DNA of 63,904 nt, the filler included, from Collodictyon triciliatum (lineage: Eukaryota), in assembly GCA_043381765.1 (NCBI GenBank). It is 51 parts of 51 records of this genome, joined end to end, with 100 filler letters (N's around TTAATTAATTAA, not from the genome) between each part and the next. Parts side by side here need not be neighbours in the genome. Positions count along the whole stretch, not along the records: positions 3,781 to 4,940 come from JBHJMP010012041.1; 50 more parts are not named here. One strand, written 5' to 3'. Positions 1,528 to 23,900 of this stretch are shown here, one piece after another. Each line of letters starts with the position of its first letter. The stretch's first letter is position 1. A program made the translations under genes and the position numbers. The notes below the pieces were generated by a model. That model saw only the letters and a list, made by a program, of their open reading frames with translations, ran no database searches and was not told the origin of the DNA.

Positions 1528-1960
1528 TTTTTTTTTTTTTATTCTTCCTTTCAATTTAGTGCGGAATGGTGGAGATGTTGACTTTGGTTCGCTAGCCATC
1601 ATTTGCATGGACGCTACTTGTTGGCAAGGTGGCGGAGGAGTAATCGGTAATCAGGAATTGCATCCTGCGGTTTGGCCTGTAGCCTGGGTCTTGTGCTTGG
1701 ATGAGAGATACAAGGCGAGGTTGAGTCTCTTTCTCAGCTTCTTTCCACATGTCTCTTCTCACGGGGTCGGAGTAATAGAGAACGTGCGGGTGGCGAAGGA
1801 AACTGTCGAGGAAAGAGATTTGTATGATGTCATCCAGTCTTTTTTTTTTTTTTTTTTTTTTTTTTCCCTTTTTTTTTTTTTTTTTTTTTTTTCCCCTTTA
1901 TTCGATTCAAAGATGATGTCATCCAGTCTATTATCAGGAATGGGTGGCTGGTTGTTGAGA
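1528..1960 (-). mobile_element. Non-LTR retrotransposon family B, 3' fragment with poly(A) tail
   Basis: Homologous to 44270-44605 and 59310-59624. Ends ...AAATTGAAAGGAAGAAT(A)13. Confidence 0.85.
1841..1912 (-). mobile_element. Family A micro-retroinsertion nested in a family B copy
   Basis: CTTTGAATCGAATAAAGGGG plus long A-tail, flanked by 17-bp TSD ATGATGTCATCCAGTCT (1824-1840 and 1913-1929). Confidence 0.9.
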
Positions 1961-2930: not shown

Positions 2931-3169
2931 CAATTGAACACCAACGCGTCAACCACCCAGAGAAAAGCACAATAAACTGCGCTTTGGAAATTTCAAACGA
3001 GCAAACAACTCCGGAATTTACGAGCGAGTAGGAAATGCAAGTGTAAAACCATAAAACTGTCATTCCTAAAACATAATAAACACTAAAATGCTGCATAAAG
3101 TTTAAACGGTGCTTTCATTTGCGGTTGGCTTCGGAATTGAGTTCGCCAGCTTCTCGCTTCGGTTGCTGC

Positions 3170-3539
3170 GCCCGATGCTTTCATCGAGGAGGTACTTCTG
3201 CCACTCAGGCCACCCCGTCCACAACATACGTCACAATGTCTCGGTCGATGAGTGGGTTCAGTGTCCAGCTGAGAAGTCCGTGGAATTGTGACGCCGATGC
3301 TGTGTCAAACTTGTTCCCCCATACCTGTGGTCATCATATTTGCACCGTTCAATCTATTCTGCATAACCAGCTCTTTCTTTCATTGATGTGTAGTCGCTCA
3401 TCACCATCGACTTATCACCGCAAAAAACATGATTTCTCATTCTGCTTTTACCTTCAAGCAGTACAGCGTTTTGTTTGTTGAGTCCGTTAGCCAGTGCACT
3501 GAGGCCCGCACCAGATATGCTGTTGCTTGTGAGGTTCAA
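3170..3539 (-). pseudogene. LRRC34-like RNI-type LRR protein, C-terminal exons, disrupted
   Basis: LNLTSNSISGAGLSALANGL, then a frameshift, NKTLYCLK|VWGNKFD...DIVTYVVDGVA*VAEV across a GT-AG intron. Resembles the LRRC34 C-terminus (WGNKFD...VVDG..xAEV). Confidence 0.6.
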
Positions 3540-3907: not shown

Positions 3908-3927
3908 TTTATTACTACGATGGCAAG

Positions 3928-3952
3928 CCTTTGAATCGAATAAAGGAAAAAA
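3928..3952 (+). mobile_element. Family A micro-retroinsertion (25 bp)
   Basis: CCTTTGAATCGAATAAAGGAAAAAA flanked by a perfect 17-bp TSD ATTACTACGATGGCAAG (3911-3927 and 3953-3969). Confidence 0.92.
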
Positions 3953-4117
3953 ATTACTACGATGGCAAGTAAAGCGTGAAAGATGGGAAGAGAAATAATT
4001 GCTTTTTTATGTGAATAAGTCAAGGTACGAATAGACAAGGAATTAGAGGTTATACACGCGAAAACAACCAAATACGTATGATTTAATCTTAACTGAAATA
4101 TGAATTTACCTTTTTAC

Positions 4118-5257: not shown

Positions 5258-5896
5258 CTAGCAGCATTGATTGTCTCGATGCCTGATAGAGGCTTCACAA
5301 CAAAATTGGTTCCAGATATCTGCATTAAACATTCAATCTAGGAAATACATATTATCTTTGGTGAATAAATCACTTTGAATCGAATAAAGAAAATTTTTTT
5401 TAGTGAATATACGAAATCAATTAATCGGTTATTATTATCATTATATAAGAATGATAGTAAATGGAATGCATCGAGAAATCCTTGTTTATAGCAGTCGTCA
5501 ACCTTACATAATTTTTCTGGTGATTGGTACCTGGGTGATTGATATCAAATTTAAGACTCCTTCGCTGATAAACACAGTGATAGGGAGTCCAAGAAACTTG
5601 TGGGCAGTTATACCCAAGACAAGGATCGAGTTTGCAATTTTGTGACTGGGGCCTGTTTCAAAGAGGACAAGAACAACTCCATCCACAAGGTCGATACTAT
5701 CAACTCCCAACATGGACTAGATGAAATATTCACCTCTCAAGTTTAGAAGCACATTCAGATTATGGGTTATGTGATGCCAGAGGATGATATATAAACACAA
5801 AGCCAAAAGTAAATGCAGGAGCGCGCAAACCTTCTGCTGAAGAAAGTTTGATAGAACAATGCTGAGATACATGCGAGTCCCCATGTCTCCAGCTTC
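5258..5896 (-). CDS. Hypothetical protein, 3 putative exons
   Basis: Phase-compatible GT-AG exons: EAGDMGTRMYLSIVLSNFLQQK|SMLGVDSIDL...ISITQ|ISGTNFVVKPLSGIETINAA. No family recognised. Confidence 0.45.
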
Positions 5897-8862: not shown

Positions 8863-8905
8863 TCTTTGAAACGAATAAATAATAATGATAATAATGATAA
8901 TAATG

Positions 8906-8964
<59 letters not shown>

Positions 8965-9977: not shown

Positions 9978-10320
9978 NNNNNNNNNNNNNNNNNNNNNNN
10001 NNNNNNNNNNNNNNNNNNNNNTTAATTAATTAANNNNNNNNNNNNNNNNNNNNNNNNNNNNNNNNNNNNNNNNNNNNGGTTCTACTTTTAACAGAAAATA
10101 GTTCAATCTACGATGATTCCATGTTTCAAGCAAAAACTAACAGCATATGCAATTGAACGCAATATTTCAAAAAAAATAATGATATTGAAAGGAAAGGTGG
10201 TATGCTTTAATTGTTAAATATATTCAAATACAACATTATGCATAAAATGATGCAAGAAAGAAACCTGTCATATTTGTCCAGTAATCATATGTATGGTCGA
10301 CTATGGCATACCTTCTCACG

Positions 10321-10366
10321 CATCTCCACTATCCTGCACAAAATTGAAAGGAAGAATAAAAAAAAA
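10321..10366 (+). mobile_element. Family B micro-retroinsertion (46 bp)
   Basis: CATCTCCACTATCCTGCACAAAATTGAAAGGAAGAAT(A)n with a perfect 18-bp TSD ATGGCATACCTTCTCACG (10303-10320 and 10367-10384). Confidence 0.92.
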
Positions 10367-11334
10367 ATGGCATACCTTCTCACGACATCATCAGGCTTGT
10401 CATTTAATATTAACAAATATAATGAACAATTATCATGTGTTTATATACCTGGCATTTAGGACATACATATAAGATAAAAAAAAGAAGGTTATGCGTCTTC
10501 TATTGCATCTAATATTATCTATTGAAGTGTTTCTCAATCCATCCGTATCATTTTTTCATACCCTCCACCTATAATTCTGGTAACTAAAAAGCATTACACT
10601 ATTTTGTTTTTTGTTTTTTTTTGTTTTATTTCCTTATCATCTGCGACTATAACTTTTGATACATAGCCAAGCAGTGGAAGCAAAACAAAAAAAAACCCCC
10701 TTTCGTTCGTGCGATTTCTGCTCATCAATTAAAAAAAAAAGGAAAGACTGCTCAAGTGTGTTTTGCTTGTGTTAAGAATGCTCATATCCACCCTCCTTCT
10801 CGCGTTTATGTTGATTATTATAGGCTTTTCTGTCGACCTGCTTCGACCTTTGTGTAGTTGTGTAAGCGGTGTTGTGCGACTGTACCCCTGAAGCTGAACA
10901 CCGCTGAGGTGATTGCCTATGCGTTGTTTGTCATGTATAATTGTTTTGAGACATTCTCCCGCTATGACAGACTAGCAAATATACAACTATGTGGATCGAC
11001 CTTGCCTACAGTTTCCTCACACAACACAACACAACACATGAACAAAAATATGACTCACAGAAAAGAAACATGTCGTCTTTGTTGTTTTCTATTTTCTTTC
11101 TGTTTTTATTTATTGTTTTTTATTGTTTTTTTATTGTTTTTTATTGTTTTTTTATTGTTTTTTATTGTTTTTTTATTGTTTTTTTATTGTTTTTTTATTG
11201 TTTTTTTATTGTTTTTTTATTGTTTTTTTATTGTNNNNNNNNNNNNNNNNNNNNNNNNNNNNNNNNNNNNNNNNNNNNTTAATTAATTAANNNNNNNNNN
11301 NNNNNNNNNNNNNNNNNNNNNNNNNNNNNNNNNN

Positions 11335-15107: not shown

Positions 15108-15415
15108 ATTCCCATCCTCTTCCACTCCCCTCTAAACATAATCAAGCCCGCTACTTTCCCTCTCCCAAGGACTTCACCACAAGTCCTATCCTGAAAGGAA
15201 TCCCTGAGCCTCTTATCAAGCCCCAAGGTCATTACCTCTTTTCCTATTCCTCTTCATCCTCTTTCTCTCCTTTCTCTATCCCCCATCTCTATACTCCTCT
15301 GATGGCACATCCGCCATCACTTTCTCTTTTTTACCTCGGAATACTTGCTTGGTGGTTGAAAAAAGATTGTTGGCAAGGGCGCCAACAGCTAAGTCTGTCG
15401 TGAATAAAAAAAAAA
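15108..15415 (+). mobile_element. Non-LTR family C 3' end with stem-loop and poly(A)
   Basis: TGTTGGC-AAGGGC-GCCAACA hairpin (15368-15387), then CTAAGTCTGTCGTGAAT(A)10. Matches 51885-51934 and is related to 25737-26000. Confidence 0.75.
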
Positions 15416-16364: not shown

Positions 16365-17447
16365 AACCGCAGAGCAACAAATCGAAAGACCACTCCAAGG
16401 GAGATATGACTTTGCTTGGGAGGTTTATCGCACTCGCTTTGGAAATGCAAAGTTTGTGATGGCACCCATGGTTTGCCTTCTACTATGTACCCTTTTTTCC
16501 ACAAGTGTTCGAATATATTTCTAATCTACTATTTTTCTGTGATTGTCTTTATATTTAAATCCGTATTTCTCATAATCCAAAATAAATTGTCGCAGGTTGA
16601 CCAATCAGAGTTAGCGTTTCGTATTCTTGTGCGCGGTTATACACCCGACGTATTGTGCTACACGCCCATGCTGCATAGGTAAGTTAGTATTACAAAGTGA
16701 AAATTGTCATCTCTTCAACATCACTGTGTAGGAATATACGGCAAATGGTTTAATTGATAAATCTTTTTTTTCCTTTATTCGATTTAATTGATAAATCTTA
16801 ACTTAGCTATCATTTTTCGACCAACGAAAAGTATCGACAAGAGCATTTCACCACAACACTAGATGACCATCCGTTGATTGCTCAGGTATCAAGACAAATT
16901 AATTTGCTGTATTCTTTGTGAAACCTTGCATATAGGTAATGTCATTTTAATTAGCTGTGAGAGTTACACAAAATATAATGAAGAAACCCTCCGCTCTATA
17001 GTTTTGTGCAAATGACCCTGATACATTGGTCAATGCGTCCAAGTTTCTAGAGAGTAAAATTGATGCCATTGATTTGAATCTTGGATGTCCTCAAGGGATT
17101 GCTAGACGGGGTCATTATGGTGCATTTCTGATGGAAGAGCCTGACCTTGTCTACAACATAGGTTTTTTTTCTTTCTTTTTTATTGTTCTCATACGTCTTC
17201 AAAAATCTTCGTTATGGAATATACTTCCCTTTTTTTTTCTTGTTGATATTGAGATATTTTTTTTTATTCTTCCTTTCAATTTTGTGCAGGATGGTGCTTT
17301 TGTTGAGATATATAACCATAAATTTTCCTTTTAGTCTCCAACCTAGTGAAGCATTCCTCTGTTCCTGTTACATGCAAGTGTAGAATTTTCGATGATTGGG
17401 AGAAAACCAAGAAGTGGGTCCAAATGCTCGAAAGTACAGGAATTGTG
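16365..17447 (+). CDS. DUS1: tRNA-dihydrouridine synthase DUS1, 5 exons
   Basis: Exons 16365-16470, 16596-16678, 16807-16885, 17002-17161 and 17335-17447: [12 protein letters not shown]...YTPMLH...PLIAQ|FCAND...[20 protein letters not shown]...PVTCKCRI. Confidence 0.95.
16766..16782 (-). mobile_element. Family A micro-retroinsertion (17 bp) in DUS1 intron 2
   Basis: TTTTTTCCTTTATTCGA between a perfect 17-bp TSD TTTAATTGATAAATCTT (16749-16765 and 16783-16799). Confidence 0.88.
17258..17296 (-). mobile_element. Family B micro-retroinsertion in DUS1 intron 4
   Basis: T-tract followed by ATTCTTCCTTTCAATTTTGTGCAGGATGGTG, with a flanking TTGAGATAT duplication. Confidence 0.8.
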
Positions 17448-23000: not shown

Positions 23001-23900
23001 TTGGTGTTTATGCAAATCCAGTAAGTTTAAGTTAAGTTTGAATTATTCACTTTTTTTTTATTATTTGTGCAATATGATTTTACATATTTTTTTGTTTGTT
23101 TTCACTTCAGTAGCTAACAAGTATGCGAACATATGGAAGAGCCGCATGTGGAATCGCATCACTCACAAATGTGCTAGTGATGTGTATAAATAGAGACCTT
23201 ACAAATAGAATAAGGACAGTGTCATGCGAAATTACTTCACATTCTCTACTGCAACAACAGCTAGAAATATCGCCTATGCTTACACGCTCTGAAGCTCTAT
23301 GAACATGTTTGCTAAAAATCTTTAAATACATACATATAATAACAACTTAATATTTTACAAAAAATATTACATTAGTAGTTGAACAACACTGCCGGTGCCT
23401 TACAGGCTCAAAGAAAGTAGTAAAGTTGAACAGGCCACGCAAAGCCTGCATCTTGAAGAAATTACAATAACATATATTTCATAACAAAAATATAATAAAA
23501 TTATCATATTGAGAGCAAGTGACACACGCGCAAGAGTAAAAAACTGTCTACATATGTTGTGTAAATTATGATTTCTTACATATAATTTAATAATAAAATA
23601 GCAAAATCTTCCAGGAACACAAAATATGCAAACAAAATCAACAAACCTTACAATATTTTTGCATAGGATGAAATTTATGCCTTTCGCCCATGAAACACAG
23701 AACAGTGTACTCTAAATAATACTATTAATAATTTTATATCCTTCGTTCAATTCAAAGAAAGGGTTTTTTTTTTTGCATTTTTCTACAGTCCGCCGTTGTT
23801 NNNNNNNNNNNNNNNNNNNNNNNNNNNNNNNNNNNNNNNNNNNNTTAATTAATTAANNNNNNNNNNNNNNNNNNNNNNNNNNNNNNNNNNNNNNNNNNNN

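What the first reader, a model, noticed from the sequence alone, without database searches (positions are those of the whole stretch)
3911..3969. Family A: an abundant ~20-nt poly(A)-tailed 'nano-retroposon' with 17-18 bp TSDs
The core (CT)TTGAATCGAATAAAGG(A)n occurs about 9 times in roughly 59 kb of real sequence (1841, 3928, 5374, 8863, 14911, 16766, 33675, 39162, 51688), in both orientations. Four copies have clean 17-18 bp TSDs (1841, 3928, 16766, 51688). The shortest inserts are about as long as their TSD, and 5' ends cluster within a few nt. A-tail plus TSD is the established L1-type TPRT signature. Inference: either RT stalls at a fixed structure near the parent's 3' end, or the mobilised unit is a very small discrete RNA. 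No long parent is visible in this window.
Basis: partly seen in the sequence, partly recalled or inferred. Interest (0 to 1): 0.78.

Follow-up and report, generated by a model that had tools for sequence, protein, structure and literature searches.

The report
Twenty-base LINE tail retrocopies
A roughly 20-base sequence with an A-tail, scattered through these contigs, is the very end of an L1-like jumping gene that was copied and inserted many times at an unusually tiny and nearly fixed length.

Summary
The core CTTTGAATCGAATAAAGG(A)n occurs 9 times in about 59.5 kb (51 small eukaryotic contigs joined by N spacers). Five copies have clean 14-18 bp target-site duplications (TSDs). Two more have decayed 14/17 TSDs and one has a low-complexity TSD. 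One copy sits inside another repeat whose two paralogues show the empty site.

A long parent is absent from the window but exists elsewhere. A 1,157-bp metagenome contig (L030) carries the C-terminus of a LINE ORF2 (zf-RVT domain), a 93-nt 3'UTR and exactly this core plus A10. Distant full-length relatives are endonuclease + RT + zf-RVT proteins of about 1,230-1,340 aa. Contigs of two public runs cover this LINE over about 1 kb.

So Family A is the 3' tip of an L1-type LINE inserted by target-primed reverse transcription, not a new kind of element. One feature is unusual: none of the 9 copies reaches more than 20 nt into the parent, although A-tails vary from 4 to 27 or more. Smooth truncation does not fit this (P below 3e-7 for half-lengths of 30 nt or more). 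The cause of the fixed boundary is unresolved; I found no structure or ribozyme. The sample is small and the whole genome was not available.

The parts
3911..3927 (+). 5' TSD of the flagged copy (ATTACTACGATGGCAAG)
3928..3952 (+). Family A unit: one extra C, core CTTTGAATCGAATAAAGG, A-tail
   Evidence: Identical over 25 nt to L030rc 1029-1053.
3953..3969 (+). 3' TSD of the flagged copy
1824..1929 (-). Family A copy with its TSDs. The insert is 1841-1912, with tail GGGG-A24-GGG-A27. The 17-bp TSD AGACTGGATGACATCAT lies at 1913-1929 and 1824-1840. The copy sits inside a family B LINE fragment.
   Evidence: Two paralogous B copies show the empty site.
5351..5409 (+). Family A copy. The insert is 5368-5392 (AAT + CACTTTGAATCGAATAAAG + A-run), with decayed TSDs (14 of 17) at 5351-5367 and 5393-5409.
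8864..8880 (+). Family A core with 2 mismatches (CTTTGAAACGAATAAAT). The tail is replaced by an (AAT/GAT)n microsatellite. No TSD seen; the copy lies 45 nt from a contig start.
14892..14953 (-). Family A copy inserted into a 10-bp tandem repeat. The TSD is 14-20 bp, and the 5' edge is ambiguous by 4 nt (CTTT is shared with the target).
16749..16799 (-). Shortest clean Family A copy. The insert is 16766-16782 (TCGAATAAAGG + A6), with the 17-bp TSD AAGATTTATCAATTAAA.
33665..33718 (+). Family A copy (TTTTGAATCGAATAAAGC + A15) with a low-complexity TSD (12 of 13). It abuts the tail of a short family B copy on the other strand.
39145..39197 (+). Family A copy. The insert is 39162-39180 (ATCGAATAAAGGG + A6), with decayed TSDs (14 of 17).
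51670..51730 (-). Family A copy. The insert is 51688-51712 (CTTCGAATCGAATAAAGAGG + A5-6), with an 18-bp TSD carrying 1 mismatch.
44279..44625 (+). Comparator: long copy of the related LINE family B (ORF2 C-terminus plus 3'UTR). It serves as the empty site for the 1841-1912 insertion.
   Evidence: (tblastx to L030)
10303..10384 (+). Comparator: short family B copy (about 37-40 nt plus A-tail) with an 18-bp TSD.
51869..51950 (-). Comparator: family C unit (about 46 nt plus A-tail, with a 5' hairpin) and a 16-bp TSD. The second copy at 15362-15414 begins within 1-2 nt of the same position.

Best explanation
Family A is the extreme 3' tip of the RNA of an L1-type LINE, here called LINE-A. It comprises the last 11-20 nt, consensus CTTTGAATCGAATAAAGG, plus the A-tail. 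The LINE's ORF2 carries a zf-RVT domain, and distant full-length relatives have endonuclease + RT + zf-RVT.

Each copy was made by target-primed reverse transcription (TPRT):
1. The endonuclease nicks at a T|A step.
2. The freed T-rich end primes on the A-tail.
3. Only the last 11-20 nt are copied.
4. A second nick 14-18 bp away gives the TSD.

Shown here: the tail, the TSDs, the T|A targets, an empty paralogous site, and colinearity with the 3' end of a LINE.

Inferred: the usable template ends 18-20 nt before the tail. No copy is longer, although tail length varies widely, so the limit sits at a position on the template and not at a fixed cDNA length. The cause is either a processed 3' fragment of the LINE RNA or a near-absolute stop of the reverse transcriptase at that position. 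I lean slightly to a discrete RNA 5' end, about 55:45. Also inferred: LINE-A itself is present in the window's genome.
For: 1. Nine copies have a tail and 8 of 9 have a flanking direct repeat. Five are clean at 14-18 bp.
2. The junction is T|A in 10 of 11 insertions of families A, B and C; the remaining one is C|A.
3. Copy 1841-1912 interrupts a family B LINE fragment. The two other B copies carry one copy of the TSD and no insert.
4. L030, read on its minus strand, holds the ORF2 C-terminus. zf-RVT scores E 1.5e-7 at 32.4 bits, above the 27.5 cut-off. The frame continues after a frameshift, 48% identical to P0001 over 112 aa. A 93-nt 3'UTR then ends in ...CGCTACA-CTTTGAATCGAATAAAGG-A10. Window copies match L030rc from position 1027-1031 onward at 88-100%.
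5. A profile search found proteins of 1,226-1,339 aa matching at their C-termini (E 3e-18 to 6e-6). The five that I scanned all have Exo_endo_phos plus RVT_1, and four also have zf-RVT.
6. In one search, 90 contigs of run X1 and 343 contigs of run X2 were laid on L030 at 82% likeness or more. Listed pieces lie between places 102 and 1119. Loose ends just beyond the tail (places 101/102) have poorly agreeing consensus (0.59-0.6), which indicates several different flanks.
7. None of the 9 window copies shows homology upstream of L030rc 1025. A-runs range from 4 to 27 nt.
8. Under smooth exponential truncation with a half-length of 30 nt or more, the probability of 9 of 9 falling within 11-20 nt is at most 2.9e-7.
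9. Family B, in the same window, has 3 long and 3 short copies with the exact tail. Family A has 0 long and 9 short. Fisher's exact test gives p = 0.044.
Against: - The parent was seen only outside the window, in one metagenome contig and in two runs whose link to the window is a small, unlaid share of words (0.14 and 0.07). Its presence in this genome is therefore inferred.
- Only 9 copies were available, from small contigs that may be enriched for repeats.
- The listed X2 piece that reaches the tail (places 102-236) has only 28 letters on the tail side of the 129|130 boundary. That is under the tool's 31-letter rule for bridging.
- No structure, ribozyme or other feature explains a stop at that position.
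- Short family B copies have varied 5' ends (about 29, 34 and 40 nt). A general fixed-footprint mechanism therefore does not fit all families.
- The RT and endonuclease domains of LINE-A itself were not seen, because L030 is too short.
Confidence: 0.7

Rival explanations
1. Independent nano-SINE. A separate, very small RNA with its own source genes mimics the LINE-A 3' tail and is mobilised in trans. It is not derived from LINE-A transcripts.
For: The length is discrete: none of the 9 copies is longer than 20 nt. Family C also looks discrete, with 2 of 2 copies starting within 1-2 nt of each other. No long LINE-A fragment is present in the window.
Against: - An 18-20 nt unit leaves no room for a promoter.
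- Copies share nothing upstream of the core, so no source-gene context is carried along.
- No Rfam family matches in the window.
- The unit is identical to the end of the LINE 3'UTR, so LINE RNA is the simplest source.
Confidence: 0.12
2. Routine smooth 5' truncation of a LINE. The clustering would be a sampling accident combined with the detection limits of a 13-mer search.
For: - An ordinary L1-type parent exists.
- Severe truncation is normal for LINEs; passages in the Discussion of PMC2887409 describe this.
- Three copies are shorter than 18 nt (11-13, 12 and 14-18 nt), so the 5' end is not strictly fixed.
Against: - The probability of 9 of 9 falling within 11-20 nt is at most 2.9e-7 for any half-length of 30 nt or more.
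- A half-length of a few nt conflicts with contigs that cover the LINE up to about 1 kb from the tail.
- Longer copies would have been detected just as easily by the same motif searches.
Confidence: 0.1
3. The LINE is not the parent. The core at the end of L030 would then be one more Family A insertion that happened to land at the 3' end of a LINE copy.
For: - Only one contig shows the junction in full.
- The 14 nt before the core and the 12 nt after the tail share 9 of 12 positions if a 2-nt gap is allowed. This is my reading, not a computed result.
- L1-type elements often insert into A-rich tails.
Against: - L030 has no other A-tail or A-run upstream of the core.
- The 93-nt 3'UTR length is similar to that of family B, which is about 55 nt plus tail.
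- At least 6 contigs from two runs end their match just past the tail while being laid on the LINE (table 7).
Confidence: 0.05
4. The pattern is an assembly or library artefact, or a chance motif.
For: The contigs are tiny and come from a fragmented assembly.
Against: - Each copy has its own different 14-18 bp TSD.
- A paralogous empty site exists.
- The same core plus tail occurs in an independent metagenome contig.
- Motif counts are far above the shuffles.
Confidence: 0.02

Closest known systems
5'-truncated ('dead-on-arrival') copies of L1-clade LINEs made by TPRT
   Same: A-tail, variable-length TSDs of about 14-18 bp, T|A target, colinearity with the 3' end of an EN+RT LINE, and insertion into other repeats.
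   Different: The copies are 11-20 nt, far below the usual hundreds of bases (the usual range is recalled). Their 5' ends share a hard upper limit instead of being spread out: none of the 9 is longer than 20 nt.
Truncated RTE 3' ends that were mistaken for SINEs (PMC2887409, Discussion passages read; they cite Malik and Eickbush)
   Same: Short LINE 3' ends flanked by TSDs accumulate in large numbers from a few full-length elements. They can be misread as a separate short retroposon family. Their tails seed microsatellites, as in copy 8864.
   Different: [quoted passage not shown] The units here hold no coding sequence, have A-tails and have 14-18 bp TSDs.
SINEs that share the 3' tail of a partner LINE, such as eel UnaSINE1/UnaL2 (recalled, not checked in a paper here)
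   Same: A short non-coding unit ends in the partner LINE's 3' sequence and is mobilised by it.
   Different: SINEs have a Pol III promoter head derived from a small RNA and are about 80-500 nt. This unit is only the tail. The shortest primate SINE, Platy-1, is about 100 bp (abstract of PMC4864456, listed).
L1-mediated retrocopies of cellular RNAs (processed pseudogenes, U6 chimeras)
   Same: They use the same machinery and carry the same tail and TSD.
   Different: The template here is the LINE's own 3' tip. No cellular RNA family matches.

Membership tests
TPRT retrocopy of an L1-type poly(A) LINE | 3' poly(A) tail directly followed by the target | tested here: met
   8 of 9 copies have an A-run of 4-27 nt. 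Copy 8864 has an (AAT)n tail instead.
TPRT retrocopy of an L1-type poly(A) LINE | Target-site duplications of variable length flanking the insert exactly | tested here: met
   Five clean TSDs of 14-18 bp, two decayed (14 of 17), one low-complexity, one not seen. Control hits lie only in tandem arrays or are the A-copy TSDs themselves.
TPRT retrocopy of an L1-type poly(A) LINE | Endonuclease-type target (T-rich | A) | tested here: met
   T|A in 10 of 11 insertions of families A, B and C.
TPRT retrocopy of an L1-type poly(A) LINE | Insert colinear with the 3' end of an element encoding endonuclease and RT | tested here: inconclusive
   The insert is colinear with the 3'UTR end of L030, which encodes the zf-RVT C-terminus of ORF2. 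EN and RT were seen only in distant full-length relatives. L030 is not from the window.
TPRT retrocopy of an L1-type poly(A) LINE | Scattered 5' truncation points | tested here: not met
   None of the 9 copies exceeds 20 nt and most end at 18-20 nt. This departs from the typical pattern, not from the mechanism.
TPRT retrocopy of an L1-type poly(A) LINE | Empty site without insert and with a single copy of the TSD | tested here: met
   Shown by paralogous family B copies for insert 1841-1912. No allelic empty site was tested.
SINE | Internal Pol III promoter or a head derived from tRNA, 7SL or 5S | tested here: not met
   The unit is 11-20 nt. No Rfam family reaches its gathering score in the window, and nothing is shared upstream of the core.
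SINE | 3' tail shared with a partner LINE | tested here: met
   The core is identical to the end of the L030 3'UTR.
Self-cleaving ribozyme-processed retroelement RNA | Known ribozyme fold next to the processing site | tested here: not met
   Rfam scan of L030 at E up to 10 gave 4 weak lncRNA or snoRNA matches and no ribozyme.

The most novel reading that the evidence does not exclude
A discrete RNA of about 18-20 nt plus A-tail is the main template that this L1-type machinery inserts. It would be cut from the 3' end of the LINE transcript at a fixed site, for instance by small-RNA-guided slicing or as the exonuclease-protected footprint of the bound RNP. It would be the shortest retroposed unit known. 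It would show that 11-18 nt plus an A-tail suffice as a template. At about 1 copy per 6.6 kb here, it could outnumber conventional LINE copies genome-wide while staying invisible to repeat annotation.
Probability: 0.3. Interest if true: 0.7.

Novelty: new variant of a known kind. Interest (0 to 1): 0.45.

Why it matters
- Inserts of 17-45 bp with an AATAAA and an A-run are below the reach of normal repeat annotation. Here they occur about once per 6.6 kb (9 in about 59.5 kb, in possibly repeat-enriched contigs).
- They can add polyadenylation-like signals and seed microsatellites. Copy 8864 now carries an (AAT)n tail.
- They inflate apparent 'unique' sequence.
- On mechanism, a hard 5' limit at a fixed template position, independent of tail length, points to RNA processing or a sequence-specific RT stop at a LINE 3' end. 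That is testable.
- The copies also set a low bound (11-18 nt plus tail) on what an L1-type enzyme will insert.

Tried and rejected
- **Whole genome:** none is held.
- **Metagenome scan with the 17-mer lacking the tail:** In one search I examined all 121 loci, including 3 viral ones. Three were flagged as A-rich after the core, and only L030 has a true A-run. The rest are chance matches, mostly in coding DNA.
- **20-mer with tail:** 8 hits in prokaryote genomes and 3 in viral contigs. I took all as chance by number and source and did not inspect them further.
- **The look-up of sequencing runs:** no RNA holder is listed. Two small-share rows came back (X1 0.14, X2 0.07).
- **Read laying on L030, cover:** places 1-78, the flank beyond the tail, had no cover. 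That is not evidence of anything.
- **Read laying on L030, depth:** summed word depth is higher near the tail (X2 about 3,000-3,400 at places 118-273, against about 125-800 beyond place 508). The tool states that contig depth cannot rank parts of a gene, so I do not use this as a truncation profile.
- **RNA folds:** the 229-nt and 99-nt LINE 3' ends gave z-scores of -1.05 and -0.28. The A unit alone has a minimum free energy of 0. I dropped an idea that the core is a 5-bp hairpin.
- **Ribozymes:** none found.
- **Organism identity:** not resolved. The atlas hit list for a Roc-COR ORF mixes bacteria and chordates. Pfam scans show ordinary eukaryote-type exons such as Dus, KH, LRR and RNase_T. 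The closest LINE proteins are unnamed metagenome fragments.
- **Literature:** four searches found no report of a discrete LINE-tail unit of about 20 nt. They were three term searches, listings and abstracts only, plus a search for the motif itself, which gave 0 papers. This does not show that none exists. Supplements were not consulted.

Full report
**What the window is.** The 63,904 bases are not one locus. They are 51 contigs of 1,149-1,177 bp joined by N44-TTAATTAATTAA-N44 spacers, giving about 59.5 kb of real sequence. GC is 28-42%. The contigs are rich in microsatellites and tandem arrays. They carry eukaryote-type exon fragments such as Roc-COR, Dus, KH, LRR and RNase_T. No whole genome is held, and the organism could not be named.

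**Check of the observation.** The flagged site reads as follows:
- TSD ATTACTACGATGGCAAG at 3911-3927.
- Insert C-CTTTGAATCGAATAAAGG-A6/7 at 3928-3952.
- The same TSD at 3953-3969.

The 13-mer core has 6 exact matches and 10 matches at up to 2 mismatches, against 3.59 expected; 0 of 100 shuffles reached 10. Two other sub-motifs give 9 matches against 0.94 expected and 8 against 0.64. A tenth hit at 59877 has no tail and is probably chance. Two further degenerate traces exist: 45512-45523 without a tail, and 23746-23757.

**Target-site duplications.**

| Copy | TSD |
|---|---|
| 1841-1912 | 17 bp, exact |
| 3928 | 17 bp, exact |
| 16766 | 17 bp, exact |
| 51688 | 18 bp, 1 mismatch |
| 14911 | at least 14 bp; target is itself a tandem repeat |
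| 5368 | decayed, 14 of 17 |
| 39162 | decayed, 14 of 17 |
| 33678 | low-complexity, 12 of 13 |
| 8864 | none seen |

The chance of an exact 14-mer flanking repeat is about 7e-7 per insert, even allowing 49 placements. In a window-wide scan, 8 of 338 A-run anchors had such a repeat, and all 8 belong to three families: A (5), B (2) and C (1). Control anchors gave 24 hits. Of these, 22 lie inside two tandem-array contigs and 2 are the A-copy TSDs seen from the other strand. The junction upstream of the TSD is T|A in 10 of 11 insertions of the three families.

**An empty site.** Copy 1841-1912 interrupts a 300-430-bp repeat, family B. The two other long B copies (44279-44625 and 59320-59626) carry a single AGACTGGATGACATCAT-like stretch and no insert. 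This shows a precise insertion with duplication of 17 bp.

**The parent.** A 17-mer scan of metagenome contigs returned 118 stretches, nearly all chance. One 1,157-bp contig, L030, has the core followed by A10. Read on its minus strand, it contains:
- An open frame with a zf-RVT domain (PF13966, E 1.5e-7, 32.4 bits against a cut-off of 27.5).
- A frameshift, then a continuation that is 48% identical over 112 aa to the C-terminus of a related metagenome protein.
- A stop codon and a 93-nt 3'UTR ending ...CGCTACA-CTTTGAATCGAATAAAGG-A10.

The same reading frame is homologous to family B of the window (tblastx). A public protein is 95% identical over 39 aa to the window's B copy. A profile of these C-termini finds proteins of 1,226-1,339 aa matching at their C-terminal ends (E 3e-18 to 6e-6). 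All five that I scanned have Exo_endo_phos plus RVT_1, and four also have zf-RVT. That is the ORF2 architecture of L1-type LINEs.

When L030 was laid against two public runs, 90 contigs (X1) and 343 contigs (X2) matched at 82% or more. Listed pieces lie between places 102 and 1119, and identities range from over 99% to under 90%. Loose ends just past the tail have poorly agreeing consensus, which indicates different flanks. LINE-A is therefore a diverged multi-copy family whose natural 3' end is the Family A core.

There are caveats. The link between these runs and the window is only a small, unlaid share of words. The one listed piece reaching the tail has 28 letters on the tail side of the boundary, below the tool's bridging rule.

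**What is unusual.** None of the nine window copies shows homology to L030 upstream of position 1025 of its LINE strand. Counted up to the GG before the tail, the element parts are:

| Copy | Length |
|---|---|
| 1841 | 18 nt |
| 3928 | 18 nt, plus one extra C |
| 51688 | 18 nt |
| 5368 | about 20 nt, plus 3 extra nt |
| 8864 | 18 nt or more |
| 14911 | 14-18 nt |
| 33678 | 15-18 nt |
| 39162 | 12 nt |
| 16766 | 11-13 nt |

A-runs range from 4 to 27 nt. The limit therefore lies at a fixed template position, not at a fixed cDNA length; this is inference. Under smooth exponential truncation with a half-length of 30 nt or more, 9 of 9 within 11-20 nt has P of at most 2.9e-7. A half-length of a few nt is hard to square with contigs covering the LINE to about 1 kb.

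In the same window, family B has 3 long copies and 3 short copies with the exact tail. The short ones have 5' ends at about 29, 34 and 40 nt. Comparing long and short copies between A and B gives Fisher p = 0.044. Family C has two copies that begin within 1-2 nt of each other, about 46 nt before the tail, just upstream of a stable hairpin (-12 kcal/mol, z -2.3).

**Search for a cause.** The LINE 3' end folds no better than shuffles (z -1.05 and -0.28). The unit itself has no stable fold. No ribozyme or other Rfam family is present.

Two small hints favour a run-off at an RNA end or a template switch at this position. Neither is decisive.
- Extra, apparently untemplated bases precede the core in 2 of the 4 copies whose 5' junction is unambiguous: 1 nt in copy 3928 and 3 nt in copy 5368, against none in copies 1841-1912 and 51688.
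- One X2 contig joins place 129, the first base of the core, to place 230 with three extra letters between (table 5c).

**Verdict.** Family A is the 3' tip of an L1-type LINE, inserted by TPRT. It is a new variant of a known kind: ultrashort LINE-tail retrocopies of nearly fixed length. The best-supported reading is that the usable template ends 18-20 nt before the tail, either as a processed RNA fragment or through an absolute RT stop. Which of the two applies is open. The claim rests on 9 copies in small contigs and on a parent seen outside the window. A genome-wide census and 5'-end mapping of short A-tailed RNA would settle it.

**Literature.** Three term searches (listings and abstracts only) and a motif search (0 papers) turned up no description of such a unit. 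Passages of PMC2887409 describe the nearest analogue, truncated RTE 3' ends mistaken for SINEs.

Noticed in passing
window 1-63904: The window is a concatenation of 51 contigs of 1,149-1,177 bp, in roughly descending length, joined by N44-TTAATTAATTAA-N44 spacers. Many contig ends are microsatellites.
   Followed up: yes
window 1529-1843 with 1913-1959 (-), 44279-44625 (+), 59320-59626 (+); short copies at 10303-10384, 17255-17296, 29797-29867: Family B is a related L1-type LINE 3' end: ORF2 C-terminus plus a 3'UTR of about 55 nt ending ...CCTGCACAAAATTGAAAGGAAGAATAAA(A)n. It has long copies and short copies of 29-40 nt with 16-18 bp TSDs.
   Followed up: partly
window 51869-51950 (-) and 15362-15414 (+): Family C is a unit of about 46 nt plus A-tail (AAGATTGTTGGCATGAGCGCCAAC...GTCGTGAATAAA). 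Both copies start within 1-2 nt of each other, and the unit has a stable 5' hairpin (-12 kcal/mol, z -2.3). One copy has a 16-bp TSD. Its parent is unknown.
   Followed up: partly
window 1841-1912 (-): The tail of this A copy is interrupted: AAAGGGG-A24-GGG-A27. It could be a second, even shorter insertion (GG plus tail) into the first tail, RT slippage, or mixed tailing of the RNA.
   Followed up: no
window 8864-8960 (+): This A copy has an (AAT/GAT)n microsatellite where the A-tail should be. A-tails of these units may seed the abundant (AAT)n repeats of this genome.
   Followed up: no
window 33675-33749 (+): An A unit lies tail-to-tail with a short family B copy on the opposite strand. The insertion went into or next to an existing element's A/T-rich tail.
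   Followed up: no
families A, B and C (for example window 3939-3945, 10353-10359, 51890-51896): All three family tails carry GAATAAA within 0-2 nt of the A-tail. That is too close for a usual polyadenylation signal spacing (recalled). It may be a shared recognition motif or may simply merge with the tail.
   Followed up: no
L030 places 129 and 230 (run X2, table 5c): One contig joins the first base of the Family A core to a point about 100 nt further into the LINE 3' region, with three extra letters between. This is the same boundary as the 5' end of the short copies.
   Followed up: no
window 45512-45523 (-) and 23746-23757 (-): Two degenerate traces of the core lack a proper tail or TSD: CACTTTGAATCGAAT followed by unrelated sequence, and CTTTGAATTGAACGAAGG.
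   Followed up: partly
window 52754-53902 (+) and 32918-33706 (-): There are long uninterrupted ORFs with bacterial-type domains: Big_9 and cadherin-like in one, NAD_binding_1 plus the DHOD-B Fe-S domain in the other. Some contigs may be bacterial contamination. The second contig, however, also carries an A unit.
   Followed up: no
window 42872-43888, 34383-35118, 47745-48896: Contigs 35 and 28 are diverged tandem arrays (about 80% self-identity over hundreds of bases), and contig 39 holds an (AG)-rich array. Contigs 8, 39 and 15 share another repeat at 83-85% identity over 350-930 bp.
   Followed up: no
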